A stretch of 64,000 bases of DNA, taken from NCBI RefSeq assembly GCF_964204865.1, contig NC_135263.1, positions 6,448,001-6,512,000 of the forward strand, written 5' to 3'. This stretch comes from Styela clava. Taxonomy: Eukaryota. The notes under the pieces were generated by a model. It was not told the origin of the DNA. It saw nothing but the letters and a program-made list of their open reading frames with translations, and did no database searches. Of the stretch, positions 39,579-63,995 are shown one piece after another. Position 1 is the stretch's first letter. Every line of letters starts with the position of its first letter. Made by a program: the position numbers and the translations under genes.

Positions 39579-42500
39579 CTAACTAATGAAATTATGCAAA
39601 ATCCACTCTTTGTGAGCTGCGACTCTTGCAAAGTACTTTGGCACATTGAGTTTTCCGCACGGTGCAACCTGGAAACTTGCTACTCCAACAACATAGTTGT
39701 TTCCATTCCATTCACATACAAGAGAACTTCCATCATCGCCCTAGAAAATCAATACAGTGTGATTGTATACCATAATTACATTACCCTATCAGTGACATGT
39801 ACGATTAAAATATTATAACAATCTAATTGAAGCCTTCATTCTTCAAGTAAAATCAACATGGGATTTACCTTATATCAACATTGAAGATTGAACAAGTAAA
39901 ATAGTTTTATGCAAAGGGAAGGAAGGAATGAAGAGTCCCAAAATAGCAAATAGAGGAATCTTACAAAAAAGGTTGTGAACCAGTGCCACAAATTATGTAA
40001 AATGAGTATAATGGCAGGAGATATGTTGAATAAAAATTGGACAATTTTAAACTTTGAAACAATATACAGACAAAAATGTAAAGTCATTATACTCGATCTT
40101 TAGATTCATTCATTCAAGATTCAATTAGCGGTTAAGTTCACTGCAGTTCTACTTTGTTTTCGGTTACCTTTTTGCCAGAACGTCTATTAGCATAATTGTT
40201 GCAACATTGCCAATCTTTGATAATGTTATGATGGTATTAATATAGCCTAGTAACTTACTGGGAGTGAGAAAAGATCAAGTTTGGGAATTGTTGTATTGTA
40301 TTTGTAAAAATTTTAAGATCAACACATTGAGAATGAGGTACTAGATGAATGCAATGCAACAAGTGTTGAGATGGGATTCCTATATATACTAAATAGACAA
40401 TAACTTAAACTGAAAGTTCAAGGATAATAATATATAATGACTTGTGGCCAGATTGAATAAAAGTCCCTGAACTGCAAGTCACGAGTCAGCTGAGTCAATC
40501 ACTGAGTTATGTTAAACTGGTGGTTAGTTGAGTCTGAGCCATTTCATTTGGATGACACAAGTCTTTGATAAATGGCTGAGTTAATACCTCAAGCACCCCA
40601 AACACTGCCTGAGACAATGCAATTTCAACAACCATTATTCTTTATTAACATGCTATTGCACTTGAAGAACGAATATTATTCTTACAACAACCCACAGTAT
40701 GTTTTGAGATGAAACTTACATCACAAAGAGTTTGCTGCGTTCCATCAAAATGCCCAGCACATATTATCGAAGTTGTATTAATTGTTCTTCCAAATGATGT
40801 TGTTGACAATGCATCACAATGGTCATCAGATAGTACTGGTAGTTCTATTGAATGAAGTGGTTGAATACCTGAAAATAATTGAACATGAATATTACCGAAA
40901 CTTTGACTTTCTAAAATTTGTAGGTTGCGATTCCAGAATATATTTCTGAATGGGTGGCGAGAAATATTCAATCTCCGTACAATATAAGCAGAGCTGGTGT
41001 CCTTTCTTCCTGTTTTTTTTTTCACAAAGCTTTTCAGACTTGTATACTTTATGCTAACCATATCTCATGAATAATACAATGTGTATATAATCACTGGGAA
41101 CAACTTACTTATGAGAAGTTACTTTGCATTGAATTAGTTCAAAACATTTACGCTGCTTACCTCCGTTACCTTCTGCATCCCAACCAGCCACTCTACAATA
41201 CTGCTTTGCTATTTCTATTCTACCAAAATTTGAGGAATCCGATACCACATGAGGGTAAGGAAGGCATGCAACTGATGCATCAAGAGTAGATTTAACAGCA
41301 ATCTGAAAGTATAGACATATTTTTCATCAAAAATTCTTGATGATTATAATTTATGAATCAGTTAATACTTCTATTTTTATAGTGGGCAACAAGCAAAATC
41401 AGGTTGCAAAACATAAAACAAAATTTCTGTTTCTTTTTAAATTTCTGTCTATTTAAATAATAATGACTCAACATCGCTTGAATGTTGAGCTTGTAGCCCG
41501 TTAGCGATTACATGATCCATCCTGTCAGAGCAGACTATAAATTCGCAATATGCCATTACGATGCATTTGCAGACTCCTCATTACGATTATAACCTATAGT
41601 CATATTATAATTACCGTACTGGAAATAAAAGCGTTAAATAAAATTGTATAATGCTAGTCCATCAGAAATTTCTGTGTTCATTTTTAGCGCAATTGAATGC
41701 TGATATATAGACAAATACAAACCCATTGACTTATTAAGAGGTCTGGCTAACCTTGATCACCGCAATATCATTATTCATGTTGTCATCAAATTCAGGATGA
41801 ACATGAATATTTTTAATTCTCACTAAAGTTGCTCCATCACTTGTATTCATTGATTGTTTGTTGTCTGTGTTTTGAGCCGTAAATACATGGATAAGATTCA
41901 GCAAGATTCGCAGGCTTGATCCTCCATAACCAACAATGACATCTGACATGCTTTAGATTTAAATTTCAGATATATGTAAAAATTGTTAGTAGGCAGAAAA
42001 TAAACTTAGGAAATAAACAAACGCTGACTTATAAACAAATTTACACGATGGCCTAGTGGTTAAAGAGCTATACCCTAATTGTGTTGGCATCGCATGTTAT
42101 ACTTCTCAAGTTCGAATCCCATGCCCACCACCTCACCCAAGGTGTAAGAAAAGATTCGGTCCATCCAGAAACAGTAGATCCTTGCATATCGTTGGATATC
42201 AGTGGCTGCTTTTAAAGTTCATTGCTTGGAATGAAAGCATCAAATAAAAAAATCAAATCTGCCTACAAAATGTTATTACTGAAAATTGAAAAATTCTTTG
42301 CCAAGTTCATCTTTAAAACTATATGATAATTCTAAATAAAACAAACAAAAACACTCATTATTTCTTTTCTGAAGTTATTAGAACTTTAGTTAGGTTGTTG
42401 ATCAATTGGAAGAATAATTTGTATTTTTAGTTATATTCTTTATAAAAACAACTATGCAAGAATCGATATGAATTTATTTTAAATCTTAAATTCTTTTTCC

Positions 42501-42713
42501 GGAATTGATAATAAATCTACTACCTTTCTTTTGTTAAGTCTGATACACAATGAGCTGCTGTTATCAGGTACTGTGAGTGAACAAACGTTGCGCCACATAA
42601 ATGCTGTTGTCCTTGTAGAGATATTAAACTTGCATGCCAAGGAACCGATGATACTTCAGTTTCTGTGCCACCAACCAAACGTCCTTTCTTTTTTCCAGCT
42701 ACTGATGCACAAT
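39579..42713 (-). CDS. Mosaic gene: S1A trypsin-like domain, predicted non-catalytic (exons 42524-42713, 41752-41950, 41161-41302, 40720-40868, 39579-39740)
   Basis: DCASVAGKKKGR|LVGG...PWHASL...HLCGATFVHSQYLITAAHC; HPEFDDNMNNDIAVIK; ACLP...CRVAGWD; IICAG...TLCD|GDDGSSLVC...VVGVASF...FARVAAHKEWI*. Confidence 0.92.
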
Positions 42714-45700
42714 CTATTAATTGGTAAATGATAAGTGTTGTTAAAAAAAAAATAATTTAAAAGTCAATTGTATTTTAAACTTAAAAACAAACAAGTTGTC
42801 TCTAGTGTTGATGAGGCGTCATTCATTGACTCAAATTAAGCTTGAGTCGCCATCTACCAAAATCTAAAAAAAATATCAAAATTGGGAATTCCTTCAATGA
42901 GATCGATGTGCTTGCATATTATGTACGAAAGATCAAATCTTGGCTCCATTTTGGTGATGATGGGTCGTCGTACTGGTTACAAATCTTTCAAATTTGATCA
43001 ATATTTTGATTCAACACAAGTTAATGTAAAAAAAAAAGCCAATTGAACCCTTTCCGAGCCCCCAGTTTGAAGAACGCTGATCTAAATGATATGATTTCGT
43101 ATGATATGATACGTCATCGACCACAAGTACACTGACACTGAAACGTACGCCAACCCTGAAAGACATTTAGATAACATATGTGATTAAACTGCCTACCTTG
43201 GCCATAAGTAAAATTTCCCCACCAGATGAATGGCCTGAGAGTACCTATAATTTGGCATACCTAACGGCATTGTTCAATAGACAATAGTAAAAAGAATATA
43301 GTTCAGAATAACCTGCTAATTTCTCAGGTAGTTGCTCTGTATCCCATGTTGCTGAAAAACCAGTTGCAACAAAGTCATTATTGCTGAAGAATCGAATTAA
43401 CATTTTCCCATTCATGCTAATGAATGGACCCAGGGTTGTTTTCCATTGTCCTGAAAATAATTTTTTCAGTCATTCAAAAAACAAAGACTATCTTACTAAT
43501 ACTCTGACATGTATGGAAATAATAGTGCGCTTAAATTTACCACACTATGTGCCCGTCAATTATTGTCAGCTTATCCAGACTACACAAAGTTTTGACATCA
43601 AATATTGGTATAACAGTACCTAGAATGGGTTCAAAACATATTACACCAATTTTTTTGTGATAAATCTTGTTTTACTGAATGACTGATTCAAACCATGGGC
43701 ATACAGATAAAAAGTTATGTTTTGCATCAAAGAAAGATAAAAACTATTGATGTATAATGGAGTAGAGTAAGAATATGAAGTAAGATTCCTGGTAAAATTG
43801 AGAGGTTCGTACAGATATTGCTATTATTTTTCAAAGCAAAGACAAAAGTCAATCCACAGTGTGAGATCTATTTTACTTAAAAGTGCTAAGCTGAATAAGA
43901 ATGCGTCCAGATCTATTCTTATGAATGTAAAGTATAAAGTTAAATGAAATTATTATATAGCTGACCACAAATTCGCCCAAGAACATTAGAATTCTCCAGT
44001 GAGGAGTCATCTCCATCAACAATTACTAAACTATCTTCAGTACATCTTCCATATTCATTTGGTTTGGATTTCCCAATGTCAACATTGTGTAACCACAGAT
44101 ATATTTTTTTCCCGGGAGCTAAAAAAATGTATGAGGTTGGAAACATGATTGATAGATATCCAAGAATATAAAATTTGCGGTTATGTGGCAAGATGATCTG
44201 ATTTATTTTATTATTAAGACATCAAGAATGTCAAGGATGACAAAATTTGCATACAAATAATTTGCATTGATTAAACTGTGAAACATAATTCATGTGTTGA
44301 ATTATCAACAAGTTAAACAGGTATTGCGCACCACTCACATAAAATGCAAATAAGATTAAATAAAAAAAAATTTCGATAGATATCATTCAATCAAAATTAT
44401 AATTTTCTTATTTGTCAAAGGAGAATTTAATAAAAACAAGATTACAACACTCTCACAGAAGTAAAGGATACTCATTTCATAGCAAAGTTACAGGAGACAA
44501 CTAAAATTTCAAAAGCTGTTTGGGTGAGAATTAATATTCTTGTTATATTTGTTAATAAGTACATATTTTACAACAGTATAAGCATAGCAGTCAGTCCAAT
44601 GATTTTGATATAAAGATGTGATTGTGCAAATATGCGTCATCTGACCAGCAATTGCATAAATAATGCTGAGATAACATGAAGTCTACCAATCTTTTGAAAA
44701 TGATCATAACCCACAAAATTAAAAACGGTGATCCTCATGTAGAGCAATATATTGAAGAAATGGCGAGTGTGTTCCTATGTAGAACAACTATCGAATCGCC
44801 AAATAAAGGAAACTTCCTCAGTGATTAAACACATGACATTGATATATTATCAGAGCCTATCAAAGAGAAAACAATTATAATACAAATGAAGATTACCAGA
44901 CAAATACCTATAATAGTCCAGTCACACAAAATATTCAATCTATATTTCAAAGGAAATCCTGGGCTACTGAATACTCCACTGTCACTGGATAAAACTCCAC
45001 CACACATCTGCCTAAAGAGATAAATAATAAATTAATTTTTGGTTTTCTATATTTCAGGTCACAGAAAAATAAGAATTTTCTAAATCAATAACATGAAACT
45101 GCCTTTCAAGCAAAAACAAGCTATTTTCTCGTGAGAGGAAATGCGTTAAGATGGCTTAATCATAGAGCTAGGTCTCGTCTGATTAGCAGCCCATGTTGGG
45201 TAAGGGATCAGACAGGTATTTTTCATTTCCAGATGCATGTATGATAAATGTAAATAGCCTATAGTTGTTAAGAAAAGAATTAGGATTTTTGATTGGGTTT
45301 TTATTATCAATACAATCCTATAATGCCCTAACATGAAGTGTTGCTGCTGTATCTGGGCTGCTGCTACCGTAACTTTAGCTCTAAACTATTGGTGAATTGC
45401 ATTTTCACCTAGTTCACAGGTTCTCCATACGGAGCCTCGAAGCTTCGTGAAAAAAACCTAGGGAGCTTGATTATCAAAATAGATGATGCCATATTTCAAT
45501 TACCGCCTTGTTTCCACATTTTGACACCTCTTTATCAAAATGTCAACTGTCAAATTTGCGGGGTTTCGTAAATAATTGTATACCTCTTCCGGGCTTTCAT
45601 AACACCGAAAATCTGAGAACCCCTGACCTAGTCTGGCTTCATTGTAATCCACAACTATCTCAAACTGTTCAATTGGTCAAAATTTCATAGCCTTTTACTT

Positions 45701-48700
45701 AATACAATAATAGGCGCGCCACCTACTTACCTGCATACAGAATTCTGAAGAGACATATTGTTATTACTTTTAAACATATCCATAGAATCAACTTCAACTG
45801 CTTCCCAGTCTAAACCTTGATCAACGGGTAATGCAGTAAGTTGAATAACTGACGATCCACTATTCCAAACTTCCATTTTTTCCGTCACTATATGAAGCAT
45901 ATATTGTTGAAGCTCGGTGTCACCACATGTGAACACCTGGAAGTATGTGAACATTTTTATCTTAGAAAATAAGGAACTCAATGAAAAATCATGGTCAATA
46001 TGGCAAAATTTGAGCTATTGTTCGTTCTGATATCTCATTTATATATAAAAGTACATGAGAACAATCAAGAGTACGATATTAATATGCATATTCATGCTAT
46101 TGTTAAGGGCACAAACTGATAACAATCAAGTTAATCAAACATTGAATACTATGATGATGTGTTACATAATGCCTCCCATATTTCTTGATCACTCAGTTTT
46201 ATAGATTTCAAGATCACAAACTTCTTGAACAAGATAAGGGTTGCCATAAGAAAGCTTATATAAGAGAAACTTCTTCAGACTACACAAGATATAACCTAAT
46301 CAAACAGCAAATTTATTCTATTATTTTCTATGAGAAGAAATTTTATTTTAAATAAAATATGATCTTTTATAAAAGTTCCGAAAAAGTTAATCCCTTTTTC
46401 AGCTCAAGTGAAAAATCTTCATCTCACCCACCTGACCACTATCTTCAAGATCACATTTAGCCAACCCAAGTAAAATACCTCCATCCCGTCTCATTGGACT
46501 CCAACATAGATTAGATGAAACACTTCGAATCAATTTATAATTAAACCAAGTCCATAACTGAGATAAATTAATTTTTGAACATGATGCAGCAGATGCTTGA
46601 ACAACATATTCATTAGTAACACTAGCCTGTAAATAAAATATATAAAATACTGTAAATACAAGATTTGATTAAGAATATTATTAAGTAATTATTGTTCATA
46701 ATTATCATATGGCAAACCACAACATCTTACGATGTCACTATGCCTTTTTAGGTATAGGAATTATAAGGATGTTTGAGAATGTTTTTAAAAATTATCTATT
46801 TTAACTTCTGGTTATGTGTTCTTGTGGCATTTAGCTTATTATGCTAATACTTGAGACTCAGATTCAAAAGACTGAAATTCAGATGAGCGACTCAGGGTTT
46901 AGTGACTTATACTCAACACTGCAATTAATACAAAACTTATTCTGGCACAGATTAGAACATGAAAATACCTGAAGACAAATATGAACATCGTTTGAATAAC
47001 GCTGTCGGATCAGAAAAGGATTGCTTACAGATTCATTACCTAAAATTAAAGGTATTTGTCAAATTCAATAATTGATTTTAATTGTTAAAAGGTACACAGT
47101 AAAAAATGGAGAAAAGGCATAAAGAATTATTATTGTATAGAAATTGCTCAAAAACTTGGAAATGATTGTTCATTCAAATTGTGACAGTTTAAAGTAACTA
47201 CTCCAATGATATTTCAAAAAAATTGACACAGCATTATGGCAATAAGTAAATTACCTAGGGGTGGAGACTAGAGTCGATGTCAGACCTGGAGACTGGATCC
47301 AAGCCTACCATATTAGATAGAACTGAAGCTGAAATTTTGGTGGCCCCAGGTCCAATTTGATTCCAAACCAGCTAACCACCCTGATTCTAGTGAAATTAGT
47401 AAGTAAGATTATTTCGATTTTCCATAAAAAAGTCACAAACAAACAAAAGCCAGGAGGGAAAACCGCAAAACAGACAAAATTTAAAAAAAAATTCGCAAAA
47501 ATATAATTTCTATCAGCAAACACATAAGTTTAAATTCTGATAATACGTCTATATTTAGGTATTTGTCTCATATACGAATACATAAAGAAAATATTCAATT
47601 TGGAGATTATGTATATAAGACCATTTCGGCCCAATACACATGTGTACAACCTTGCAGTTAAGAACAGAATGAATAAAAAAAAATATTGGTTACATGAACA
47701 AGCAGTTGTATTTAGAATTTTCAAGGGTTGCAATAATCACCTCTGCCATCTTCGTTTTGACAACTGAAATTGATTTCCGACCATTTTCCATTATCAGTAC
47801 ACTCTACTCCAGCAATTTCATCTTCAGATACCATTCCAGCAACACAGGTCAAAGTACATTTTGTTCCTTTTGGTTGCCACAGTTGTCCACAGCTGCTTGG
47901 TTTTACCAAAACACCCATTTCTGACATAAATGCAGGACATTGTTCTGTGTGATAGATACGATAGAATAGAATTATTTTGCAAAATGTTATATTGTGCTAA
48001 TATAGCGTAACGTTTTAACTACACTAAAGTGTGAGATCTATTTCATGCTGATTGTCAAACACACAAATTTTCTTCTTTTTTCAAAAGAAAATAGTTTTTT
48101 CCTGACATGTGAAGTTGCTGAATTCATAGCATTCAGTAAAATTCACAAACGACATCGATTAACCTAAGAGACAACAATCTTAAAAACAAACACAAAAATA
48201 AAACACACTTACTTTCACAAACTGGTAGTCCTCCATCCCACTTGTTATCAGAATTACAACTTCTTGAAACAGGTCCACTGACTAAACTGCACCCAGCACC
48301 ACATATAACAGAAACCTGTGATCCAGGAATGACTGCTTCATCTTTATATCTAAAATAATGAAAATAAAATAATGTAATCACAATTACTAAATTTTGTATG
48401 TGATATCCAAAAGGGTGATTCAAAAAAAAAGAACCCATAAATTTCCTAAATACCTTTTTACTAAGAAAATTGATTTAACACCTGAATTTCTGTTGGTGTA
48501 TGATGTTTCATTAATCTAGAACAGTGGTTCCCAACCGCCGGTCCGCAAAGCTTTTTTGCCGGTCCGCGAGAAATTTCGTTGTTTTTATGCCGTCTCAATC
48601 GCTTTATCGTAGACAAAGTTGCGTTGGATCATTACGCAATTCTCTTCCGCCCTCATATTGCGACGTCTTTCGCGACATGTTGGCGCCGTCTTACGCGACA

Positions 48701-51700
48701 TCTTGACGCCGATCATTCACACTTTTCGCTTTTTCGGCTCCGATTCATCGCGAATGCGCTCCATCAAATCTCGCAAAATTAAGATGCCTAAAAATCGGCA
48801 CGCGTGCTTTTTCTGTTTTGCGTGCTTTTCCTGATTAATATGACCATATATATAAATCGTAATGCATATCTCCTTGTTTAAACCAGAAAACAGTCAAAGA
48901 ACAGTGTAATATTTCAGTAAGCTTTGCGACCCAACAGGTGGTCACGTGACACGCAAAAAAAGCATGGGCCGCAGAGATATTTTCCAGACACAGTAGAAAT
49001 TTGAGCCTGTTGCCAAGTTATCGACGACCCTGTCATTGTAAAGCAAATTCATTTCGTTTGAGGCGTCGATCAACTGCAGAGGGAAGATGATGAACCCAAT
49101 CAAAAAGAAAAGGCTTGATTAAAATGGTGACTCTACTTTACAGTTCAGATTAAAAAAGAATTACTTATCACGATTTTAGATATCTCCTGATAACGAATAC
49201 CCATCGCCAGGTTATCGAGCAATCAAACTGTTGTCCGTCTTTCAGCCAGTGACTGCTTAATGCGAAAAAACATTTTCATCACTAGATTCAATTAAAACGA
49301 AGCAAAGAAATCGGCTGCACGCGGCTGAAGAGTTACGTGTTGCAAAAACTTCTTTGAGGCCTCGTTTGCAATCTTATATTGGAAACGAAACAGCAGCAAA
49401 ATTCTCACATGAGTTAATTGCATGTGAGTGCAATGAGTTTGTGCATGTTTTCATTGTGAGATATTCTATGCGTGCCTTTCTTACGCATAATGGGTGCCCA
49501 GCACTGCATGTCATTACGCAAATATATGATATTATTTTATGTTTCACCCATTTTTAATTTTTGGTCAGCACATTATTTGATAGTTTTTCTCCGTGAGAAA
49601 TGTTTTTAAGTGTGCTTTTTTGTCTAGAAGCATATTGAGTGCAAATATTTGGTTATTCTTTTCTGTTCCGGCCATTTCAATTTTTTGCCGGTCCGCGAGT
49701 ACATTTAATCTAATTTTACCGGTCCGCTGATCTAGGACACTTTGCACAAATTATGTTCTTTTTAGATGATGTTCCTCATGATTTGGGCTCTGTTTGTTTG
49801 AGTCCCCCTGATTGGTTTATTTGATATCAAGAAAATGGTTCCATTACATTCGAACCCACGACAATTGCACCTGCATACTATTGCACCTATGTAAATTTTT
49901 TTTGTTTTACGGATATTTGAACCCATACTGACCCTAACCCATGGGTTTTAGCACACGCATATAGATTGAACCCACGGATATACACATGGGTTCGAATGTA
50001 CGGTCAACCAAGAAAATAATGTGTCCCTGTTTAGGTAGCTTCAGAAACAATTTCCTGATGCATCTGGAACAAATAACTGGCTAACTACCCAACATGGACT
50101 GGTAACCAGTCTAGAGGCTGTGGACACCATATGATTAAGCTGTCTAATCTCCTCTCCCCTCACTCTGGATAAATATGAAAATCCTAACATATCTTTTTCC
50201 AGGGAAAAATAAAAAATTAAAAATGGTTACTCACAAATCATGATAAACAATGTTCATGGGGCAATCTCTTGTTGAAGATATCAATGGACAAGCATTCAAT
50301 CGAATACAACTCGGCAAAGGATGACTCCAATTGCCATTTGAACAAACCAGAGAGGAAGCTCCACTCAGAACATAACCACTTTCACATCTATTGATAGAAA
50401 ATATAGAGCTTAAAAATTGAAATCTACATTTTAAAAAAAATGTTTGAAAAAACAAAAAACAAGACCTTAAATAAAAGAACATACAAAATAATATATCAAT
50501 TTTTTATACCCCAAAAATTCTCAATCAATTGACCAGAGGTTTGAGTTCGAAAATTGCCCAACGTTTCAATTATTTTGTATATGCCCGAAGTAGTCTATGC
50601 TGTGTGTTCTATATTTAGATATGTAGTGTTGTCAAACGAACTCCCTTTTGTATACTTCACTCTTACTCCTGTTACTCCCTATACCCTCTGGCCATTGCTT
50701 TGCCTATTAGCCCTCAACTGAATGTATAACTGACTATACTGTTCATATTTTATTCTGTCCAATATTTGTCTGAAGAGGTTCGTGCCGCAATTTGTGATTT
50801 AGGTTAATATGGTCTTGTGCATGCATCCCATCTCGAACATAATAATACCTTATCTATATTATCGTTACAAGATGACTGAACATACATACACATCATACAT
50901 ATAACTTGATGCTGACCAATGCTACCTATTGATAAAATTGAGATTATTTTTTAACTCACTGAAACTGACAGACATTCTCTTCATAATTGTCATCTGTTTT
51001 ACATCTGGTAGGATAAACAATTCCATTGTTTGGTGCTCGCAAATTTTTGCAATATTCTTTAAAGAAATATCAGTAAATGATATGCAGATATGGGGCTTAT
51101 GCGGTGGTTAGCGCATTGTGATAAACCCTAGAAACATGCTTGTCATCACACCTCCCATTACCCTGCATAATCATGTACGAGTCTATTGCTGGCCTCCTTT
51201 TTAGTCAAGGGTGATTCACATAACCACTGGTCAGGTATGGCCTTCTCTAACATAAAGTCCATGCATCTGAAACAAGCAACGAGTTAACTTAACCCATAAC
51301 CGACATTGACCAGTAACTGGAATTACATTGACCAGTAACCGGAGATGCTGTAGTTCCCCATAATGATTAATATGAAAATCTTATTTTAAAATATCAGACA
51401 AGCAACAGGCAATAAAATGTGTTCCCCTTCAATAAAAAAAAAAGAAATTTTTTTTGGTGAAACATTGGTTCCCAGACTCAATGGAAATTGAAAAAAAAAG
51501 TGATAGTCTTCCAGTGGTAGAGAAAGGTGATTTTTTTCTCAATAACAACATCAAAAACCCTAAACAAGAATTTAGTAATTATATTAAGCAAGCTCATTGA
51601 TCTTGGTCCTTACCGTATCGGTACCGATTTCATCATTGCTCTCTTGTTTCTATGACAATCATATCAAAATGTTTATAGTGAATATAATAAAATAAACAAT

Positions 51701-54700: not shown

Positions 54701-57700
54701 AGAGATTCTCAAGCTGTTTATATCTGAGTGAGGGCTACTTCCACAATCCCATAATTGAAACGAATTTGTAGAATCGCAATCTTGTAATGTTATCTGGAGA
54801 TGAATAGAGCACCATTGACAATAAATTCTACTGTTAATAAATGAATTGTTTACAGCTATAACTTGACTTTAAATGATAATCTGCTTGATATTTGATCCAA
54901 TAGTGGAATATAGATTACCATTGCCATGGAAATTCGGTATCAGTGTAATATTTATGTTGAAGCATCACCAAAAATTGGTTAATTTTTAATATTTATGCGA
55001 CGTACAGTTATATTGAAAGCTTTGAATTTTTTTGAAAAAACTAAAGATTTCCATAAGAACTCAGATAGCAAGAAAAGTAAATTTACTGAGAAGAACTGTC
55101 TCGTACACAATATATGGGAAATTCCTATAAACTAATAATAAAAATCTAATAATAGCTTTTCTGTACATGCAAAACATCTATTAATAATTATTTTTTTTAA
55201 TGTATCATTTGTTTTGTAAACTTTATATGAGAACGTTTCCTACAGAGCTGTGGAGCCACGAGTTGAAGTTGCGGACTTTCAGTTGTGACCAAATAATTGA
55301 AAAAAAGCTTCACAATAAAACTTAAAAAGTATAATGTTAATCAGCGAGTGTACTTTTATTAAAACGACATGCATACGCCAGAGTTTTTGTTTTTAAAATT
55401 TAATTTCTTGGAGTTTGGGTCTGGAATCTGAATTTCCTACAACCCGGAGTCAGAGTCTGGCTTATTAACAGCTCTGGTTTCCCAGGCATCAATACATGAA
55501 TGATAATAATTGATTTGATACCATTAGTACAACAAAATATACAAATTGAAACATTATGATTATTGATTACTAACTTTGCCCCATTTACTACCGCTACCAG
55601 TAACACACAGTCCAGATTCAACATGCTGAAGAAGATCAGAATTAGTTTTCCATTTGAAAAGTTGCGATGCATCAGTACTCATGCATTTATGTTTTGCAAT
55701 CAAGTTATCTTCTTCCACAGTAACACAAAGGGATTGACTTTTCACAGCCATTGATATTATTTGAAACTGGTCATCTCCTGAGATGGATAGAGGAATAAAA
55801 ATTGTTCTTGACTACCTAATATTTATTAAAAGTTAATGATGGTTTACTGTGTTAAGTAGCTCTCTAGCGATTTTCTATTTGGGGCTCACAGTTTCAAATT
55901 CTGTGAAATGTGAATGTGTGGGAAAGAGTTCTGTCGTCACTAAAATCATTCAAGTCTATGCGTCTGAAACAAGTAACTGGTTAAATCTTCCCAACGATGA
56001 CATGGACTGATAATCAGAGGAGAGGCTGTGGTTCGTCGCATGATGAAGTCATCCAATCGACTTTCCTTTCCACTGGGATAAATATGGAAATCTTATCCTA
56101 CTGATTATTTAAACCTCATTTATTCAAATCAACACAACTAAATCATAATTTTCTTGAAATTAAAAGAGTCCTCCTGATCTATATTCATTTCAAATTTTAA
56201 ACACTTTGATATTCATTTCATCTACTAAAGTAGTAGGATGTTAGTAAAAGGATTTTTATAGATATCCGTAGGAAGAAGAAAGTTGATGATGACTTTATCA
56301 TACAGCAAACCACAATATCTTGTAAAGTACAGTCCGCCATCCATTGTCTATAAAAGTTGATGCATGTTAACAATATATTATTGATGTAAGAGATATTGGA
56401 ATTTCTGTTAACAATATTAAATGGATGGCTCAAGGTTAAATACTTATTTGTCCTGTTTCAAGTTTGTTTTGAAGAAAAAAAATTGTTTCTGTAAATGGTA
56501 TATTCATGATAACAAGGAGTCCAACAATCGCCAGCACGACACACCACATGTTAATCACCACGGGACGAAAACTTATGAACTGCATACAAAGAATTAAGCA
56601 GACTGTGGCTGTATGTTTTTAATGTATACCAATAACCATCTAAAAAAACTATATATCTCCATCAAAATTGACTAAAATTTTAACATAAAAAAACTTACTG
56701 ATGCACTGAGGAATACGTTTGTCCCATTCTCCACTATCCAAGCACATCAAAACCTTTGGACCAGACAACACATGACCAGGGTTACATCTGAATGTGCAGG
56801 AAACACTTCTACAAGGCAGAGGATCAATTTTGCCATCAAGAATGCCGAATATGACTGGACAAATTCCTGTAATTATATATAACTACTATTGAATTGTCAA
56901 AATACACAATTTTGCTTGAGGAAAAAATCATCGAAAGGCAAACTTGTGGGATACACTTACCGTAAGTTTCAAAAGGAGCAATGGCCTAGTGGTTAAAGCG
57001 TTAGTCTGAACTAACTCAGAGGTTACACATCTCAGGTTCAAATCCCATGAGAACCACCTCACCTAGAGTGTAGTCAATTGGTTAGGTAATGACAAACTGG
57101 AAAGATTCTGGTCCTTTCAAAATAAAGTGTAGCTATTTACATATCAGTGGATGGTTGTCGAAAAGTAAAATCGTGAAAATACTAAGATACATTTCAAGAT
57201 TTATTACCTAAAACTCGGTCAACTATTAGAAACCAGTTGGAGCTAAGCATTAAATGATGCAAGCCAACACAATCAGAAAAACTAATTGAATAATAAAATG
57301 TATTAAAATGAAACATAACAGCTCGAGAAAGTTTTCGTTAAAACTGCACAAAATTAATAATGAATGGCTTGGAATGAAAAGATCTACAAACGTACTTCTA
57401 CATTGAAACCGCAGAGGTGACCATTCACCATTTGCTAGGCATTTTCGTTCTGGATTTCCTCTCATCTCATAACCTTTTAAACACTTGGCAATGCATATTT
57501 GATCCACATGAGGTTCATCAAACACACAATCTGGATCTTCATAATAAGTATTCCCTGGCAGTGTGTCCATCAATTGTGGACAACTCTCTGAAAACAATTA
57601 ACTAATAAATATTTGTGTAAACACTTCATATGTAACTTCAACTGTGTGAGAATGTTGGTTCAAACCTAGAATCAAACGTAATAAATCATTGGCTCATGGG

Positions 57701-60700
57701 CCACAAAGTGAAAAGTCATGTTATTTCGATGACCCCTCGGGTCACGAAGTATTGGAAAAAACGTTAACTGGCTTTAAATTAAACCAACTTTTATAGGTTC
57801 AATGGACCTGATCTATGTGTGGCAACTTCGCCTGTTTATGGCAGTGGTTTCATTTTGGAGAATAAGCAGAGAGAATACACGAAAAGTTTTTGAGAATGAT
57901 AAAAATTTTGGGAAAAATTTGAACTATTCTTGAGACACAGTAACCTGATAAATTTGTAATTATAACCTAGATAAGTGTAGGCTAAAACTATCTGTGTGAG
58001 AGAGTAAATAGAATTGAAACAAGTAACTGAGGCAAAGCATACTGGCAAGTGATTTTTTTTTTAATTTTACTGAAATAACTGAATACCAGGTGGAGTCAGT
58101 TGACAGAGAATAATTATCAAAATTTTAGATAAGTGATGATATCTTTAATTGAACTGAACACGATTGTTCTTATGTTAATTCAAAAAGCTCTGTGACATGC
58201 CTGAGAATATTCCGCAGCACACTGGTGTTCCACCCAGTTTGAGAACCACTTCAACACAGTGCTAATACATAAAAAAACAGTCATCTGCAATTTATTCAAC
58301 AAAAAATATCATAAAATAAAACTTACCAACACAAGTTGGTATAGGATTCATCCACAATCCATTTCCCATACACAATGTGAAAGCATCACCAAGAACATAT
58401 GCAGTTTCACTTATACAATCAAACGTGCATATCTCTCCCTCTTCGACAGCGATAGTTTTACATTTTTCTGGCGGATCTACAATACCTCCTGGTATATCAT
58501 ACAATGGTGGACAAGCACCTGTGTATATTGTACAGTTCACATTATAATAATTTAACAAATAATAAAGTAGTTATTGAGGGTACTAGGGTATTATTGCACA
58601 TGAACTGCAGGTTTATTCTCTTTGTCTACTTTCTGCTTCTGAATAATTCTGATCTGTATGTGGCCGTTGCAAATAGAATGATTGAACGATTTAGTATTAA
58701 AGCGAATATGTGCATGTATTGTGAAAAGCCTGATATCAGCCATTCAATATCTGATTTTCAATCTTTTCACATTTATGTTCCAGGTTGCGAAGCATTTTGA
58801 AAGCAGTTCAGCACTACTCAAAAAAAATATGAAAGTGATCTACTATTACTAAAATTATAATTTTACCGCCTGGTCTCCTCGAGCATAAACTGGATAAAGT
58901 AATAGTTCTTAAACTCAGTGTCGAAAAATAGCTATGAGCATCACTCCACAACTGCAACACCACCTTGGCAGAATTCTGTGAAGCAGGAATGTGATTATGT
59001 GACCATCAGTAAAATACGACTGACACAGTTTACTGTTCGAGAAAACTGAAAACAAAAGATGTACAATGTCATCAAGCATACATTGCAGTAATCTCTTGGT
59101 CTCAAATTCCATAGGCCCAACCTCACCAAGGTGGTAGTGAATTGAACGACTAGAATATCATTATATATCTGTGGTTGCTTATACAGATCCTTTCTCAGAG
59201 TCAAAAGCATGAATGAAAGTCATATAAAAAAAGAACCCTGAAGATTAACAGTTTAAAACATACAACAAACGAAATCTACCAACAGGCATACAAATGAAAC
59301 AAGGCACTTTGGGAACTGAATTTTATCTACTGAATTTTTTGCCACAAATGAATAAAATTTACTTGAAATGAATGAAAATATAACCTTTATATAAGTACTC
59401 GGAGAGTAGGCTGTATCTCTAAGCAACAATCGAAATGGATTATGTGTTGAACATTCCCACCACTGTAAAGGGTCTTCTGTATCACAAGGCCGAGTTATTA
59501 AAGGTTCATCAGATCGAACATTATAAACAGCAATGCATCGACCAGTTGCAGAATTCCTGTGGAGAAGATAATTTTCAAATCATATTTATCCCAGTGGAAA
59601 GGTAAGCCAATAAGACCATACGCAGAACCAGGCCTATCGTATGAAATGTACTATTACTCGCATTGGACGGACAGTTATGAGACTTGACTTGTAAAATTTG
59701 CTGTAACTCGGAATTGACTCAGGAATCATATGATCCATGACTCGACTTTACTCATGGTTTAAAGATCTGTACCCAACACTCACTCAGTATGGTGTGGAAT
59801 TTAATTAATTAATATAAAGTATTATATATACAACATAGTGTTCAGATGGTAAACTCACTGAATATTATAATTTTGAAGCCAACGCCACTGATGAGATGTT
59901 GTACCATCAAGTGATGTTTTTAAACAAGATTGTTTGTCGAGTTTTTCTATTTCACCGATTTCATTTTCTGTCAGACATATTGAATTACCATCTAATGATT
60001 GCATAATGTACATTGGCACACCAGTTTCTAAAACAAAATAAAACATATTAGTTATCCTAAGGCTAAATTAGAATATTAATCGATTGTTATTACATTGCAG
60101 AATAAAAGCATAAAGAAAAGTTTCAGCAAATCTCAAAGAATTGTACAAGAAGTTATGTAAACTTCAGAAAATATGTTCCGTTGACAGTGTAAACCCTCAA
60201 GGTGTCAAGACGAATATCAACGTACTGATATCTCTATAGCTGGGATAAACTTACAAAAAGCTCTTAGTGTATTGTGGGCGCTTGCAATGCTCAATTAGTT
60301 CAGTGTAGATCAATTTAACAAACAATATACAATGTATATAATACCAATGCATTCAGGAAAGTCAGGATACCATTGCCCTCTGCTATTACATGTAACAACA
60401 GCAACTGATGATGCAGAAAGCTCCCTGTTGCAAACAACTTTACATTTTGTTCCCCACACATAATCCATCACATTTCTTCCTTGAATTTGTTTTAGATCCA
60501 CAGTTGTACAATTCAAAGTACCATTTTCTATTTTAGGTACTGGACATTGTTCTAAATTAAACCAACATTATAGAATAGAACAACAGTACTAAGTATCTTG
60601 AAATTTAAATGAATTCAAATTTATGCTGATTTTCACTGATAACACTTGCATTATCATATCTGGTTATTGGCGTTGTTGACCCGACCTGATAACCAAACAA

Positions 60701-63700
60701 AAGGTATTCCATTTTAACTGTATAGAATAGAATAGGATTTACATATATATATCCCAGGGGAGAGGAAATTCGATAAGATGACTTAATCATGATTCGAACC
60801 ACGGCCTCCTATCGGGTACCAGTCCATGCCGGGTATGGCAGGATCACCTTTGATAACTAATGTTCTGCTTTGGAAATTTCGTAAAAAAAGTGAGCAATTC
60901 AGAGTAAAATGATAGCAAACAATTATTAACCACAAGATTTTTGAACCTGCCATCTCTAAACACTTCAATTGACAGAATTACGCCGCCACACTTCGGCACA
61001 AATAGCCAATCAACAATATGTGTAAACATAGACTTACAATATCTTTAACGATTTAGAAATGAAAACTATTACACAGTCTAATTTATACTTACTATTGCAT
61101 CTTGGCACAGTGTTATCCCATTGGCCATCTTCACCACATGTTGCTGACGAACTACCAACCAGAGTGAATCCGTCATTGCAAGAAAAGGAGCAAGTTTCAC
61201 CAGCTGTTATATGATTACTATTACAAGAATTGGGTGGACTTGCTTCTCCATTGTATATTTTAGTGAGTGGAAAACATCTTCCTGAACAATACAATGAACA
61301 AGTGCAATTAGGCATAGCTATTTCATTGAATTAGGATATGCTATTTGAATCACAATTTACAAAATTGCAAATTTTATGTGAATAAAGATACTCACCCACT
61401 CACTTAAATAAAACTTGTCTTACACATGGTAAATTTATCCGACAGTTTTATTAATGTTGTAATATAGATATATATTGTCATTATATATCGAAATGATAAT
61501 GGCAAAAATTACACCCTGGGTGATGGGTGATCTGGGTGTAACCCACAATGCAAGCATAGTTAACTATAAAGTTTAATTATTTAACCGTAAGGCCATCGTG
61601 CCACACTTTAACCACTAGTCCATATCTGTACAGAATAACTCAAATATATACGAAACCAACTTTTGCATTCTGGCATTGGTGTACTCCATATCCCAGTTGC
61701 ATTGCATGTTGTAGTGACACTTCCGATAAGCGTGTATTGATCAAAGCATGAAAATGCACAAACAGCTCCACTTCCCATGCTTGTCATTGTACAAACATGT
61801 GGAAACACTTTTCCATCTTCCAATGGTTTTAATGCTGAACATTTTTCTGAAAAATAGAGGTATAATGTTTAAAACTATAACATAGTGCTTCGAGAGTATT
61901 ATACCCAATGATAACATGAGTTTTTTTCATAAAGCATGTAAACCAGACATACCAATGCATTTAGCTGGAATGTTATCCCAAGTTCCATCAAGTAGACAAG
62001 TTGACAATGCTTCCCCGACTAATATATGTTCAGAATCACACGAAGTTGTACACACTGTACCAATTGATATTCTAGATACAAGGGTTATGAATAATACTAT
62101 TGCCTGAAATAGTAAAGTATACTGTTTCCCCAAAAGTCATTGCTCCTTTCAGAATCATAGAACATAGGCACTGAACTACCTACTTCAGCATGATAATGGT
62201 GGGCCGGACCAGATACCATCGTCTTGACACAGAACTGTAGTCAAAGATTTTCATATTTATCTCAGAGAGGGGAAAGCCAATCATATGACAAACCACCACT
62301 ATGTGAACAACCCTACAATGATGAACAATCTTCTTGCTCATAAATATCTCCACAGGATTTGAACCAGATATCCATAAGGTAATCAGAGGCGTGATGGCAA
62401 TAGCATAGATATCCGTAGCATAATGCGCCATTCGCCATTGATTCAAAATCTAATTTAAAATGCATTAAAAATATATGTATAATATTTCATAAACTATAAA
62501 GCACTTACTTTTTCATTATGCAAGTAGCAGGCGTAATAAAAGTAAAATTATTAGTCTGAGTAGGAGAAACACAATATCTTTCACATGAGGGTGGTTCTGC
62601 AGATACTACAAAATCATCTTCGTCATTTTCCTCTTTACTTAGTGAGGAAGGCAAAATCCAAACCCCAGCTTTGCAAACTTTAGAAGAACTTCCACTAACA
62701 ACGAATCCTTCGTCACATATAAACGAGCAGGTCGAACCTTCTTTCACAAAGTTTTCTGAGCATGATAACGGCATTACCTTTGAGAATTAAATTTAACTAA
62801 ATTGATTTGGTATATATGAAAAAAAAATTATTTAATTAAATAGCACTTTTGTATATATAAACCAATTGAATATTAAGGAAATTTTGGGCACATATTGAAA
62901 ATTAAGAATACCTGAAAGAAATTTTAAAATGGTTATAATTTTATACGACGTTTATACGACGTGAAAAGTTGTTAAAACTATGACATAAAACTAATGAGGA
63001 TATTTTCTTCTCACATAACACAAGTATTAACAAATTTTTGCTGGAGTACCTTCTAGCTTTTTGTGTCTGAATGAAGATTGGGATAGAATTTGCAAAAGAA
63101 TTTTTGAATTCACAAACAAACATGGAACAAAAGATGAATGAGTGTTGAGGAGGCTCAAGTCATTGACTCGACTTATTATCTTAATGAAATGACTAATAAC
63201 GGCCAGTTAGACATAGGACTCGGACTAGATTTGATACTCAAATTTAGCGTTTATATAATGAAACATGGTTAAGTGTTGGTGAGGCTTGTGTCATTGACTG
63301 ACTCATCTCATCGGCGCTCCAGAAGTATGTGTACCAATAGGGAGGTAACTAATTTTGTTCGCCTATTTTACATCAAGTTGTGGTAAAGAGACGGAAGCCT
63401 ATGAGCAGGGGGAATATTCACTTGGCTAACACAAACAGTCCCCGAACTCGTAATAGAACTAAAATTTATGGCCTAACCCTAGCCTGGTACACATACCACG
63501 GGAGTACCAACTCATCTAAATGATATGACTAATACTCATGCTCAAATAACTGTCAGTGAGACTTCTGAGCTCAACAGTTGATTGACATAGGATTCGATGT
63601 GGATAATCAACCGTGCCCATTATCCTTGGATGCAGCACAAACAAGAATATTTGATTATTAACAAACCTGACCATTCCTTGGTGCAACCACAGGATTACAC

Positions 63701-63995
63701 ATTGAAATACATTCCACCTCTTCACCAGACCATGTACCATCAGCCATGCATAATTTTGTCACACTGCCAATTAAAGTTGAACTTTGTTCCTTTTTAGTTT
63801 TACACCGATTCACCAGAGCCGTAGAGTTTTCATTATTATTTAAGCCGTCGTTGTAACAAGATACATCAACAATGTCTATTCCAAAACCAATTTCACATTC
63901 AAGTCTACAAATTGCACCTTCAGTTTGTTCTTCAGTAAAACAAGATGCTGGAGAAGCAAAAGCATGAGACATTGGACTAATATTAGAGCAGATAC
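39579..63995 (-). CDS. Large mosaic protein, 5'-partial: >=15 CCP/sushi + 3 ricin-B/CysR lectin-like + CUB + trypsin-like serine protease homolog (catalytic Ser->Asp)
   Basis: About 35 GT-AG exons that splice in frame by hand. Repeated C-x-F-x-C-x-x-G-[FY]-x-L-x-G...C...G-x-W...P-x-C sushi motifs; Q-x-W beta-trefoil motifs; CGG..SSPGFP..Y...CDW CUB; LVGG/PW/CG/AAHC/DIA protease motifs; TAG stop at 39581-39579. Confidence 0.88.
42048..42210 (+). mobile_element. tRNA-derived SINE family 2 copy
   Basis: atggcctagtggttaaag...agttcgaatcccatg...cacctcacccaaggtgtaa...atatcagtgg. Confidence 0.75.
43313..45011 (-). CDS. Mosaic gene: CUB domain (exons ~44909-45011, 43966-44118, 43313-43450)
   Basis: [31 protein letters not shown] | APGKKIYLWL...CTEDSLVIVDG...LGRIC | G...MLIRFFSNNDFVATGFSATW is a canonical CUB consensus. 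Confidence 0.92.
45730..47039 (-). CDS. Mosaic gene: ricin-B/CysR-like domain 3 (exons ~46970-47039, 46432-46627, 45730-45936)
   Basis: PFLIRQ...ICLQ | ASV...SCSKINLSQLWTWFNYKLIRSVSSNLCW...LAKCDLEDSGQ | VFTC...NSVC. Confidence 0.78.
47741..53588 (-). CDS. Mosaic gene: CCP modules 10-15
   Basis: Exons ~53480-53588, 53263-53372, 52464-52625, 51746-51965, 50959-51061, 50234-50387, 48212-48350, 47741-47945; e.g. ECSFQCEAGYHLSGSSLRKCKPSGVWDGVDTKC. Confidence 0.88.
48522..49729 (+). mobile_element. hAT (Charlie/Buster-type) deletion derivative with decayed transposase 3' end
   Basis: Left TIR CAGTGGTTCCCAACC; subterminal ccggtccgc repeats at both ends; right TIR largely deleted; TSD atctagaa / atctagga (7/8). 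Confidence 0.85.
49190..49412 (+). pseudogene. Degenerate hAT transposase C-terminal dimerization-domain fragment
   Basis: EYPSPGYRAIKLLSVF / CEKTFSSLDSIKTKQRNRLHAAEELRVAKTSLRPRL / KQQQNSH, with frameshifts and a stop; resembles the Buster/ZBED5-type CExxFSxLxxIKTKxRNRL motif. Confidence 0.8.
49837..50009. mobile_element. Small MITE-like inverted-repeat element
   Basis: tacattcgaaccca / tgggttcgaatgta 14-bp perfect inverted ends; internal repeated gaaccca and accctaaccc. Confidence 0.65.
51095..51385 (+). mobile_element. SINE family 1 copy, decayed
   Basis: cttgtcatcacacctc...aagtccatgcatctgaaacaa...aatatgaaaatcttat. Confidence 0.7.
52744..52977. mobile_element. Palindromic MITE with CCCTAACC motif (GGTACTCC TIR family)
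   Basis: Long imperfect TIRs ggtactcctgaagtacgtgaaccaagatg / catacttcgggagtacc; internal cctaaccctaacctggtacacatact; flanks ggtaattt / gttaattt. Confidence 0.85.
53815..55777 (-). CDS. Mosaic gene: ricin-B/CysR-like domain 2 (exons ~55577-55777, 54698-54793, 53815-53955)
   Basis: FQIIS...SLCVTV...KCMSTDASQLFKW...LQHVESGLCV | ITLQDCDSTNSFQLWDC | ETYYLDVG...HW; splices in frame. Confidence 0.78.
53985..54660 (+). mobile_element. Older SINE family 1 copy split by the young copy (head ~53985-54090, remainder ~54436-54660)
   Basis: The two halves are collinear with the young copy and together make one element. Confidence 0.78.
54092..54435 (+). mobile_element. tRNA-derived SINE family 1, full-length young copy
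   Basis: A box TGGCTCAACGGG, B box GGTTTGAATCC, body with caagtccatgc, tail ggataaatatgtaaatcctatcct; CpGs intact; many decayed relatives in the window. Confidence 0.88.
55940..56100 (+). mobile_element. SINE family 1, 3' fragment
   Basis: caagtctatgcgtctgaaac...gagaggctgtggttcg...ctgggataaatatggaaatcttatccta. Similar fragments at ~5210-5330, 25380-25870, 28470-28620, 50050-50190, 59575-59620, 60733-60842 and 62245-62430. Confidence 0.75.
56699..58518 (-). CDS. Mosaic gene: CCP modules 7-9 (exons ~58327-58518, 57396-57587, 56699-56866)
   Basis: One phase 1-1 exon per sushi module, e.g. ICIAKCLKGYEMRGNPERKCLANGEWSPLRFQC. Confidence 0.9.
56976..57152 (+). mobile_element. tRNA-derived SINE family 2
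   Basis: A box TGGCCTAGTGG, B box GGTTCAAATCC, then cacctcacc.a..gtgta...atatcagtgg; related copies at ~42048-42210, 3659-3812, 23730-23830. Confidence 0.75.
58867..60028 (-). CDS. Mosaic gene: ricin-B/CysR-like domain 1 (exons ~59858-60028, 59385-59557, 58867-58975)
   Basis: ICLTE...SC...HQWRWLQNYNIQ | ATGRCIAV...TRPCDTEDPLQWWEC... | ...SSLCSRRPG; same pattern as the N-terminal CysR domain of the mannose-receptor family. Confidence 0.75.
60344..63995 (-). CDS. Mosaic gene: CCP/sushi modules 1-6 (exons ~63667-63995, 62509-62778, 61951-62071, 61660-61846, 61093-61281, 60344-60551)
   Basis: For example [34 protein letters not shown] and AVCAFSCFDQYTLIGSVTTTCNATGIWSTPMPEC. Confidence 0.9.
63313..63508 (+). 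mobile_element. GGTACTCC-family MITE, asymmetric subfamily
   Basis: ggcgctccagaagtatgtgtacc...cctaaccctagcctggtacacataccacgggagtacc; closely similar to 27001-27215 and, reversed, 16426-16643. Confidence 0.85.

What the first reader, a model, noticed from the sequence alone, without database searches (positions are those of the whole stretch)
39579..63995. Giant lectin-complement-like mosaic protein: (CCP)6+ - RICIN - (CCP)3 - RICIN - (CCP)6 - RICIN - CUB - serine protease homolog
Seen: manual splicing gives one continuous frame with >=15 sushi modules, three mannose-receptor-type CysR/ricin beta-trefoils interspersed among them, one CUB and a C-terminal S1A domain. No transmembrane segment precedes the stop, and the N-terminus is outside the window. 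Known: MASP/C1r/C1s (CUB-EGF-CUB-CCP-CCP-SP), factor B/C2 and horseshoe crab factor C use overlapping modules, but I do not recognise any characterised protein with this order. Inference: a secreted pattern-recognition or gamete-coat scaffold joining glycan sensing, a long CCP stalk and a protease-fold effector in one chain.
Basis: partly seen in the sequence, partly recalled or inferred. Interest (0 to 1): 0.85.

Follow-up and report, generated by a model that had tools for sequence, protein, structure and literature searches.

The report
Giant membrane-anchored sea-squirt pseudo-protease
This is the tail of one 4,300-residue sea-squirt gene for a predicted membrane-anchored rod of sushi and lectin-fold modules, tipped by a protease domain that lacks its catalytic serine; it is built like the known sperm protein HrTTSP-1, so it likely binds the egg coat, and it has an almost intron-free twin gene 171 kb away.

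Summary
The module order is confirmed: CCP6-ricin-CCP3-ricin-CCP6-ricin-CUB-protease, spliced in RNA contigs from three studies. The gene runs 25 kb past the window. The full model (74 coding exons, 4,308 aa) is: short tail, one N-terminal membrane anchor, SEA, C7-R-C5-R-C5-R-C5-R-C8-R-C3-R-C6-R, CUB, serine-protease domain. So it is a predicted type II membrane protein, not a secreted one. His, Asp and the activation site are kept, but Ser195 is Asp; the Clavelina orthologue (4,351 aa, 38% identical) keeps the triad. The architecture is not new: Halocynthia HrTTSP-1 (337 kDa; membrane anchor, 23 repeats, 2 ricin domains, protease), a sperm-side binder of egg-coat VC70, has this plan. Its sequence was not retrieved, so orthology is untested. 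Not found in my paper searches: the family spans Styela, Ciona and Clavelina as two old paralogues with nearly the same module string, and paralogue B lies 171 kb away with 4,304 of 4,306 residues in one exon and a dead protease, a candidate giant retrocopy. Best reading: a non-catalytic egg-coat tether on sperm (about 0.55); tissue, ligand and sugar binding are untested. New variant of a known kind.

The parts
60345..63995 (-). CCP modules 25-30 of 39 (last six of an 8-module block; 6 exons). The gene continues past the window's end: anchor, SEA, CCP 1-24 and trefoils R1-R4 lie at G000:C18:6,512,689-6,537,446
58867..60027 (-). Ricin-type (CysR-like) beta-trefoil R5, 3 exons, aa 2863-3012
   Evidence: orthologue model and fold searches
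56699..58518 (-). CCP modules 31-33
53815..55777 (-). Beta-trefoil R6, aa 3197-3350
47741..53587 (-). CCP modules 34-39
45731..47039 (-). Beta-trefoil R7, aa 3740-3897
43313..45011 (-). CUB domain, 3 exons
39579..42713 (-). Serine-protease-fold domain, 5 exons: activation site Arg4040|LVGG (42681), His4083 (42552), Asp4153 (41769), Asp4258 in place of Ser195 (39734-39732), stop at 39579

Best explanation
One spliced gene encodes a 4,300-residue chain of 39 sushi modules, 7 ricin-fold domains, CUB and a protease domain without its catalytic serine, predicted to be anchored by its N-terminus in the membrane, likely of sperm, where it would tether the cell to the egg coat as HrTTSP-1 is reported to do. 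Shown: gene structure in the laid stretch, module order, Ser195 to Asp, single hydrophobic segment, orthologue and paralogue sequences. Predicted: type II topology, SEA and trefoil folds (modelled on the Clavelina orthologue). Inferred: the sushi blocks form an extended stalk (about 170-190 nm if straight, from about 3.5-4 nm per module, own knowledge) that holds CUB and the protease fold far from the membrane; another, trypsin-like enzyme cuts after Arg4040 and the head stays attached by the Cys4030-Cys4171 bond; the head then binds but cannot cut its target, likely an EGF/ZP coat protein of the VC70 type. The trefoils would be spacers or added binding nodes; their ligands are unknown. In Clavelina the same head keeps its triad and would bind and cut.
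For: Open frame over 74 exons, all acceptors AG, 72 GT donors and 1 GC. Only one hydrophobic segment (KD19 2.58 at aa 24; next 1.57), after a basic run; N-terminal hydrophobic segments in the 4 relatives with an intact N-terminus among 8 scored and in P0199. SEA fold: pLDDT 84, best match TMPRSS6 Z 14.5, rmsd 2.4 A, 118 aligned. RefSeq Clavelina LOC143466216 is one 4,351-aa protein, 37.9% identical over 4,195 pairs; 30 of 39 CCPs hit the same-position module best. Review PMC9265791, section 3.2: HrTTSP-1 has an N-terminal membrane domain, 23 repeats, 2 ricin-B domains and a C-terminal protease, and binds HrVC70 by two-hybrid and pulldown. Only one other gene of this plan was found in the genome (counts are lower bounds, and three weak trefoil matches on other contigs were not inspected). 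12 of 15 listed coding variants are synonymous (265 rows hidden), so the gene looks live.
Against: The HrTTSP-1 sequence did not come up in two long-protein searches and the primary paper is not held, so orthology rests on architecture; HrTTSP-1 could equally be paralogue B. Its size and counts differ (337 kDa, 23 repeats called EGF-like in the review, 2 ricin) from 474 kDa, 39 and 7. No tissue label was available; transcripts are in all 4 laid runs from 3 studies, which does not suggest narrow expression. Two-hybrid and pulldown with cysteine-rich domains are weak evidence of the in vivo role. A VC70-like partner was not identified here: 18 ZP-domain matches, no EGF pattern in the 8 loci inspected with 1.5 kb flanks. 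The 40 exons upstream of the window, and those above 59500 in it, have no RNA check.
Confidence: 0.55

Rival explanations
1. Same membrane protein, but somatic: a surface scaffold or recognition protein on haemocytes, pharynx or epidermis, where the sushi stalk and trefoils engage microbes, complement or tunic.
For: CCP, CUB and protease folds are complement parts (established knowledge). Transcripts in all 4 laid runs of 3 studies. A Ciona sushi protein first tied to fertilisation, vCRL1, turned out to serve the blood system (PMC8849226 passage).
Against: The only characterised protein of this plan that I found is sperm-side. No EGF, vWA or C-type lectin domain; module number is nearly fixed across species, unlike expanding immune families (inference). 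Mannose-receptor pocket motifs absent.
Confidence: 0.25
2. A gonad protein of the female side (oocyte, follicle or test cells) that helps build or process the vitelline coat; binding to VC70 would reflect coat assembly, not sperm docking.
For: The same screen gave coat proteins that bind VC70, and follicle-cell ovochymase combines CUB with active and inactive protease domains (PMC9265791 section 3.2). Ascidian gonads are hermaphroditic (own knowledge).
Against: The review calls HrTTSP-1 sperm-side. No direct data here.
Confidence: 0.12
3. Two or more genes, or a secreted protein, wrongly joined by manual splicing.
For: 5 of 26 introns in the laid stretch, among them CUB to protease, are not in the listed joints; nothing above 59500 was laid. 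Ciona RefSeq has the orthologue only as N-terminal pieces of 925 and 1,289 aa in my results; no full-length Styela record of this gene came up.
Against: Exon phases fit throughout; full-length single-protein orthologue in Clavelina; paralogue B carries the whole plan in one open frame.
Confidence: 0.04

Closest known systems
HrTTSP-1, Halocynthia roretzi (Harada and Sawada 2007, seen only as cited in PMC9265791)
   Same: Type II membrane anchor, long run of cysteine-rich repeats, ricin-B domains, C-terminal serine-protease domain; stolidobranch ascidian. I recall a book chapter giving 23 CCP, 3 ricin B and 1 CUB; that is from memory, not from a call.
   Different: 474 kDa, 39 CCP, 7 trefoils and a SEA domain against 337 kDa, 23 repeats and 2 ricin domains; catalytic Ser lost here (state in HrTTSP-1 unknown to me); sequence orthology untested.
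Vertebrate type II transmembrane serine proteases (matriptase, TMPRSS6, enteropeptidase)
   Same: Tail, signal-anchor, SEA, stem with CUB, C-terminal S1 domain with activation motif and linking cysteines; SEA model closest to TMPRSS6.
   Different: Stem of 39 CCP and 7 trefoils, no LDLa or SRCR hit; about five times longer; no catalytic serine; the GSVVV self-cleavage motif of SEA domains (recalled) reads GIVVH; residue 189 is Thr, not Asp (by motif counting).
Mannose receptor (CD206) cysteine-rich domain
   Same: Best sequence-profile and structure match of trefoil R5.
   Different: Seven internal copies; Asn99/Asn102 and the Gly-Ser-Gly-Leu-Trp loop that bind sulfated GalNAc (PMC2193177) are not seen in any of them.
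MASP/C1r/C1s, factor B/C2, Limulus factor C
   Same: Use CCP, CUB and S1 protease modules (domain plans from own knowledge).
   Different: They are secreted; here CUB lies between stalk and protease, there is no EGF, vWA or LCCL hit, and there is a membrane anchor with SEA.
Uncharacterised RefSeq proteins: Clavelina LOC143466216 (orthologue); Styela LOC120340507 and Ciona LOC113474449 (paralogue B)
   Same: Same module string within one or two modules per HMM count.
   Different: Clavelina keeps the triad; paralogue B (25-28% identical) lacks the activation motif and GDSGG in all 5 aligned sequences and is almost intron-free in this genome.

Membership tests
Type II transmembrane serine proteases (TTSP) | Short N-terminal tail and a single signal-anchor | tested here: met
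   Only segment above KD19 1.6 is aa 24-42 (2.58), after a basic run; same in orthologues. Topology is predicted; exon 1 has no RNA check.
Type II transmembrane serine proteases (TTSP) | Modular stem (SEA, CUB and others) | tested here: met
   CUB by Pfam; SEA by fold of the orthologue's domain, Z 14.5 to TMPRSS6; Pfam does not detect the SEA.
Type II transmembrane serine proteases (TTSP) | C-terminal S1 domain with activation motif and linking cysteines | tested here: met
   Arg4040|LVGG, Cys4030, Cys4171; Trypsin hits.
Type II transmembrane serine proteases (TTSP) | Catalytic His-Asp-Ser triad | tested here: not met
   GDDGS for GDSGG, codon GAT, two base changes from Ser; run X2's contig has only one unlisted difference in that piece. 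Met in the Clavelina orthologue. Filed as a TTSP-like pseudo-protease, not as an active TTSP.
HrTTSP-1 group | Anchor + long Cys-rich repeat array + ricin-B domains + C-terminal protease | tested here: met
   against the description
HrTTSP-1 group | Same size and domain counts (337 kDa, 23 repeats, 2 ricin) | tested here: not met
   474 kDa, 39 CCP, 7 trefoils; Pfam itself counts only 30 Sushi and 5 ricin stretches in the orthologue, so part of the gap may be detection.
HrTTSP-1 group | Sequence orthology to HrTTSP-1 | tested here: inconclusive
   No record named HrTTSP-1 or Halocynthia among the named hits; several hits are unnamed, and only 17 of the 150 hits were looked up by name.
HrTTSP-1 group | Sperm location and binding to VC70 | not testable with these tools
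   Run labels are coded; no VC70 sequence was in hand.
MASP/C1r/C1s | Secreted CUB-EGF-CUB-CCP-CCP-protease | tested here: not met
   one CUB, no EGF hit, membrane anchor
Mannose-receptor CysR lectin domain | CysR-type beta-trefoil fold | tested here: met
   R5 only: profile E 5.5e-10 to 1fwu; Z 20.1, rmsd 1.9 A, 132 aligned to 5xtw. Others by mutual profile.
Mannose-receptor CysR lectin domain | Sulfated-sugar pocket in lobe III | tested here: not met
   Motif scan: 0 of 7 trefoils here and 0 of 7 in Clavelina have the loop motif; an N-x-x-N in 0 of 7 and 1 of 7. A motif scan, not a binding test.
Retrogene (paralogue B) | Coding region without the parent's introns, parent with introns in the same genome | tested here: met
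   Residues 3-4306 of P0003 match one open frame with 0 mismatches; a likely 1.4-kb intron after the first two codons; paralogue A has 73 introns.
Retrogene (paralogue B) | Direction of the change (B lost introns by retroposition, A did not gain them) | not tested
   Needs intron positions in other tunicates and an outgroup; a metagenome scan for a second B locus found nothing.

The most novel reading that the evidence does not exclude
Ascidian sperm carry two co-linear rods of fixed length, about 4,300 residues each: the intron-rich A and a 13-kb retrocopy B made before Ciona and Styela split. They act as a molecular ruler that reaches between follicle cells to the vitelline coat, and their protease heads have been turned into non-cutting binders several times (all B; Styela A). 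In stolidobranchs one of them is the still unidentified male determinant that reads polymorphic VC70 for self-sterility.
Probability: 0.12. Interest if true: 0.8.

Novelty: new variant of a known kind. Interest (0 to 1): 0.45.

Why it matters
HrTTSP-1 is listed, with a question mark, as a candidate male determinant of self-sterility in Pyuridae (PMC9265791, Table 2) and appears in only one paper of the held library. A full gene model, an orthologue in Clavelina and Ciona, and a second paralogue make that question testable, including by knockout in Ciona. Two features would interest specialists apart from that: a 12.9-kb single coding exon that mirrors a 74-exon gene module for module, and loss of the catalytic serine in one lineage's orthologue while the activation site is kept.

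Tried and rejected
Homologue search with one 78-aa protease exon: nothing (limited to 138-2000 aa). ESM Atlas with one SEA exon: no usable hit. Pfam for SEA: none on exons or orthologues; settled by fold. PDB sequence search with one trefoil exon: only E>0.4. Metagenome scan for a second paralogue-B locus: 14 pattern matches, none confirmed. Contig depth on exons was about 250-440 in run X2 and 3-22 in the other three; the tool warns that depth is a poor measure, so I draw no tissue conclusion. VC70-like gene not identified. Earlier findings of the scan: none. Papers not held: Harada and Sawada 2007, Urayama 2008, Yamada 2009; no supplements were read, and sperm or egg-coat proteome tables could bear on location. 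Accession search: 0 papers; TTSPs + SEA domain + Ciona/tunicate: 0 papers; Styela testis search uninformative. Candidate exon near C18:6,534,300 dropped (phases did not need it). Model exon 14 (36 nt) has no counterpart in Clavelina and may be spurious, so the length is 4,296-4,308 aa. No complex prediction was run, as no partner sequence was in hand.
Full report
Setting. The window is G000:C18:6,448,001-6,512,000 of a 377-Mb animal genome. A RefSeq Styela clava protein matches the same contig without a mismatch, so the organism is that ascidian. The gene lies on the minus strand; the lower part of the window (to about 37.6 kb) is DNA-PKcs.

Observation. Reading frames of the window give Sushi in 14 of 30, Ricin_B_lectin in 3, CUB in 2 and Trypsin in 3. 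A splice model places 34 exons in the window, with 15 CCP, 3 trefoils, CUB and the protease domain in the order reported. Contigs of 4 RNA-type runs from 3 studies, laid on 39501-59500, show 14 of the 26 model introns directly; 7 more fit by exact contig length, and 5 are not among the listed rows. One 2,031-nt contig joins CCP34 to CUB and overhangs it by 49 nt; another covers four protease exons and overhangs by 68 nt. The CUB-protease joint itself was not listed.

The rest of the gene. Neighbouring stretches hold 40 more exons at C18:6,512,689-6,537,446 (Sushi in 22 and ricin in 2 of 37 frames). The anchor exon is at C18:6,537,317-6,537,446 and the two SEA exons at 6,534,963-6,536,014; the true start may lie further up. 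The whole model has 74 coding exons over 49.9 kb and 4,308 aa, 474 kDa, with 38 N-glycosylation sequons. Order: tail, anchor, SEA, C7-R-C5-R-C5-R-C5-R-C8-R-C3-R-C6-R, CUB, protease. Most CCPs have six cysteines, which may explain why the review calls the HrTTSP-1 repeats EGF-like (inference). The single hydrophobic segment is at aa 24-50, after a basic run. Pfam misses the juxtamembrane domain, but a model of the Clavelina orthologue's domain (7 rows, pLDDT 84) matches TMPRSS6 and MUC16 SEA domains, Z 14.5 to 10.2, the next row 7.9. These upstream exons have no RNA check; their support is phase continuity and the orthologue.

Protease head. The activation motif, His and Asp are present; the Ser195 position is Asp. 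Ser would need two base changes, and the X2 contig has one unlisted difference in that piece, so the loss is not an assembly slip. The Clavelina orthologue keeps the triad. Residue 189 is Thr here and Ala in Clavelina by motif counting, so even the active form should not be trypsin-like and would need another enzyme for activation (inference).

Trefoils. All seven match one another. A profile of R5 and its relatives hits mannose-receptor CysR first of 45 PDB sequences, and the model agrees (pLDDT 84.6 for the best of five, two models under 50; Z 20.1 against 16.2 for the next family). The residues that bind sulfated GalNAc in CysR (PMC2193177, passages) are not seen in any of them. 'Glycan sensing' is therefore open.

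Family. Among the 150 best hits of an HMMER search and two long-protein searches, proteins with both CCP arrays and these trefoils that carry a name are from Styela, Ciona and Clavelina; five more are unnamed. They fall into two groups, split 100/100 in trees of the N-terminal 1,300 residues (6 rows) and of CUB-protease (7 rows), with a warning on long branches. Group A: this gene, Clavelina P0199 (37.9%), Ciona P0197/P0069 (N-terminal pieces). Group B: Styela P0003, Ciona P0152 and unnamed P0006, P0011, P0154, P0198, P0086, at 24-28% to A. Ciona and Styela have both, so the duplication likely predates their split. The module string is the same within one or two modules per HMM count, though CCPs of A and B no longer match by position (4 and 1 of 39, against 30 of 39 for the orthologue). 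None of the 5 B sequences aligned keeps the activation motif or GDSGG.

Paralogue B. It lies 171 kb away, head to head, at C18:6,708,496-6,721,422 (+), with residues 3-4306 in one open frame behind a likely 1.4-kb intron. Four other B proteins come from 37-kb to 2.8-Mb contigs as calls of 3,631-4,256 aa, three of them starting at an internal Met, which suggests long exons there too; I could not fetch their DNA. Retroposition of a 13-kb message is the simplest reading; wholesale intron loss in B or gain in A is not excluded.

What is known. The review PMC9265791 (passages and the whole of section 3.2) describes HrTTSP-1 of Halocynthia roretzi: 337 kDa, N-terminal membrane domain, 23 repeats, 2 ricin-B domains, C-terminal protease, found by two-hybrid with the egg-coat receptor HrVC70 and confirmed by pulldown; its Table 2 lists it with a question mark as male determinant. 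It is the only paper in the held library with that name. I saw nothing of the primary paper. PMC8849226, PMC7344649 and PMC6353882 (passages) do not mention it. Searches for the accessions and for tunicate TTSPs with SEA gave 0 papers; subscription journals and supplements were out of reach, so 'not found' is weak.

Mechanism and odds. That this is one type II membrane protein with a dead head: about 0.93. That it works as a sperm-side egg-coat tether like HrTTSP-1: about 0.55, from architecture alone, with no tissue data and no sequence link. A somatic surface role takes 0.25, a female-side role 0.12, a mis-joined model 0.04. It works like a TTSP in layout but fails the catalytic test, so I file it as a TTSP-like pseudo-protease of the HrTTSP-1 type.

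Verdict. The plan is known from one little-studied protein; the full size, the SEA domain, the spread across three ascidian orders, the lineage-specific loss of Ser195 and the near intron-free twin were not found in my searches. New variant of a known kind; interest 0.45.

Noticed in passing
G000:C18:6,708,496-6,721,422 (+); L020-L021: Paralogue B (RefSeq LOC120340507): one open frame of 4,309 codons, same module plan as the 74-exon gene, dead protease; candidate giant old retrocopy.
   Followed up: yes
window about 100-37,600, minus strand: Multi-exon DNA-PKcs (PRKDC) gene starting about 2 kb downstream of this gene's stop; Pfam DNA-PKcs domains in 5 of 6 frames scanned, 3 over the cut-off.
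   Followed up: partly
L005:1234-2500 (+), about 6 kb upstream of the first exon: Leucine-rich-repeat gene with a long acidic tail, divergent to this gene; looks like ANP32 (name recalled; only a weak LRR_9 hit).
   Followed up: partly
G000:C9:8,152,435-8,153,637 (-); L018, L022: Single-frame 401-aa gene for a small type II membrane protease with intact activation site and triad, between two other long single frames (602 and 790 aa).
   Followed up: no
P0199, protease domain: The Clavelina head has an intact triad and Ala at position 189; the review names a sperm chymotrypsin-like protease as a lysin candidate in Ciona. The Ciona orthologue's head was not retrieved.
   Followed up: no
P0003 and P0006, protease domain: These two B proteins also have Asp at the Ser195 position, as Styela A does, although Clavelina A has Ser: convergence or chance.
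   Followed up: no
window 48,500-50,100, 52,740-52,980 and 53,990-54,440: Intronic interspersed repeats that draw very deep coverage from RNA-type contigs; the middle one has inverted ends by eye.
   Followed up: no
L002:3783 (intron after exon 34 of the model): The only non-GT donor of the model (GC-AG); not checked with RNA.
   Followed up: no
L027 (C1), L028 (C9): Weak matches to a trefoil exon on other contigs (E 2e-4 to 0.09); probably other CysR- or ricin-type genes.
   Followed up: no
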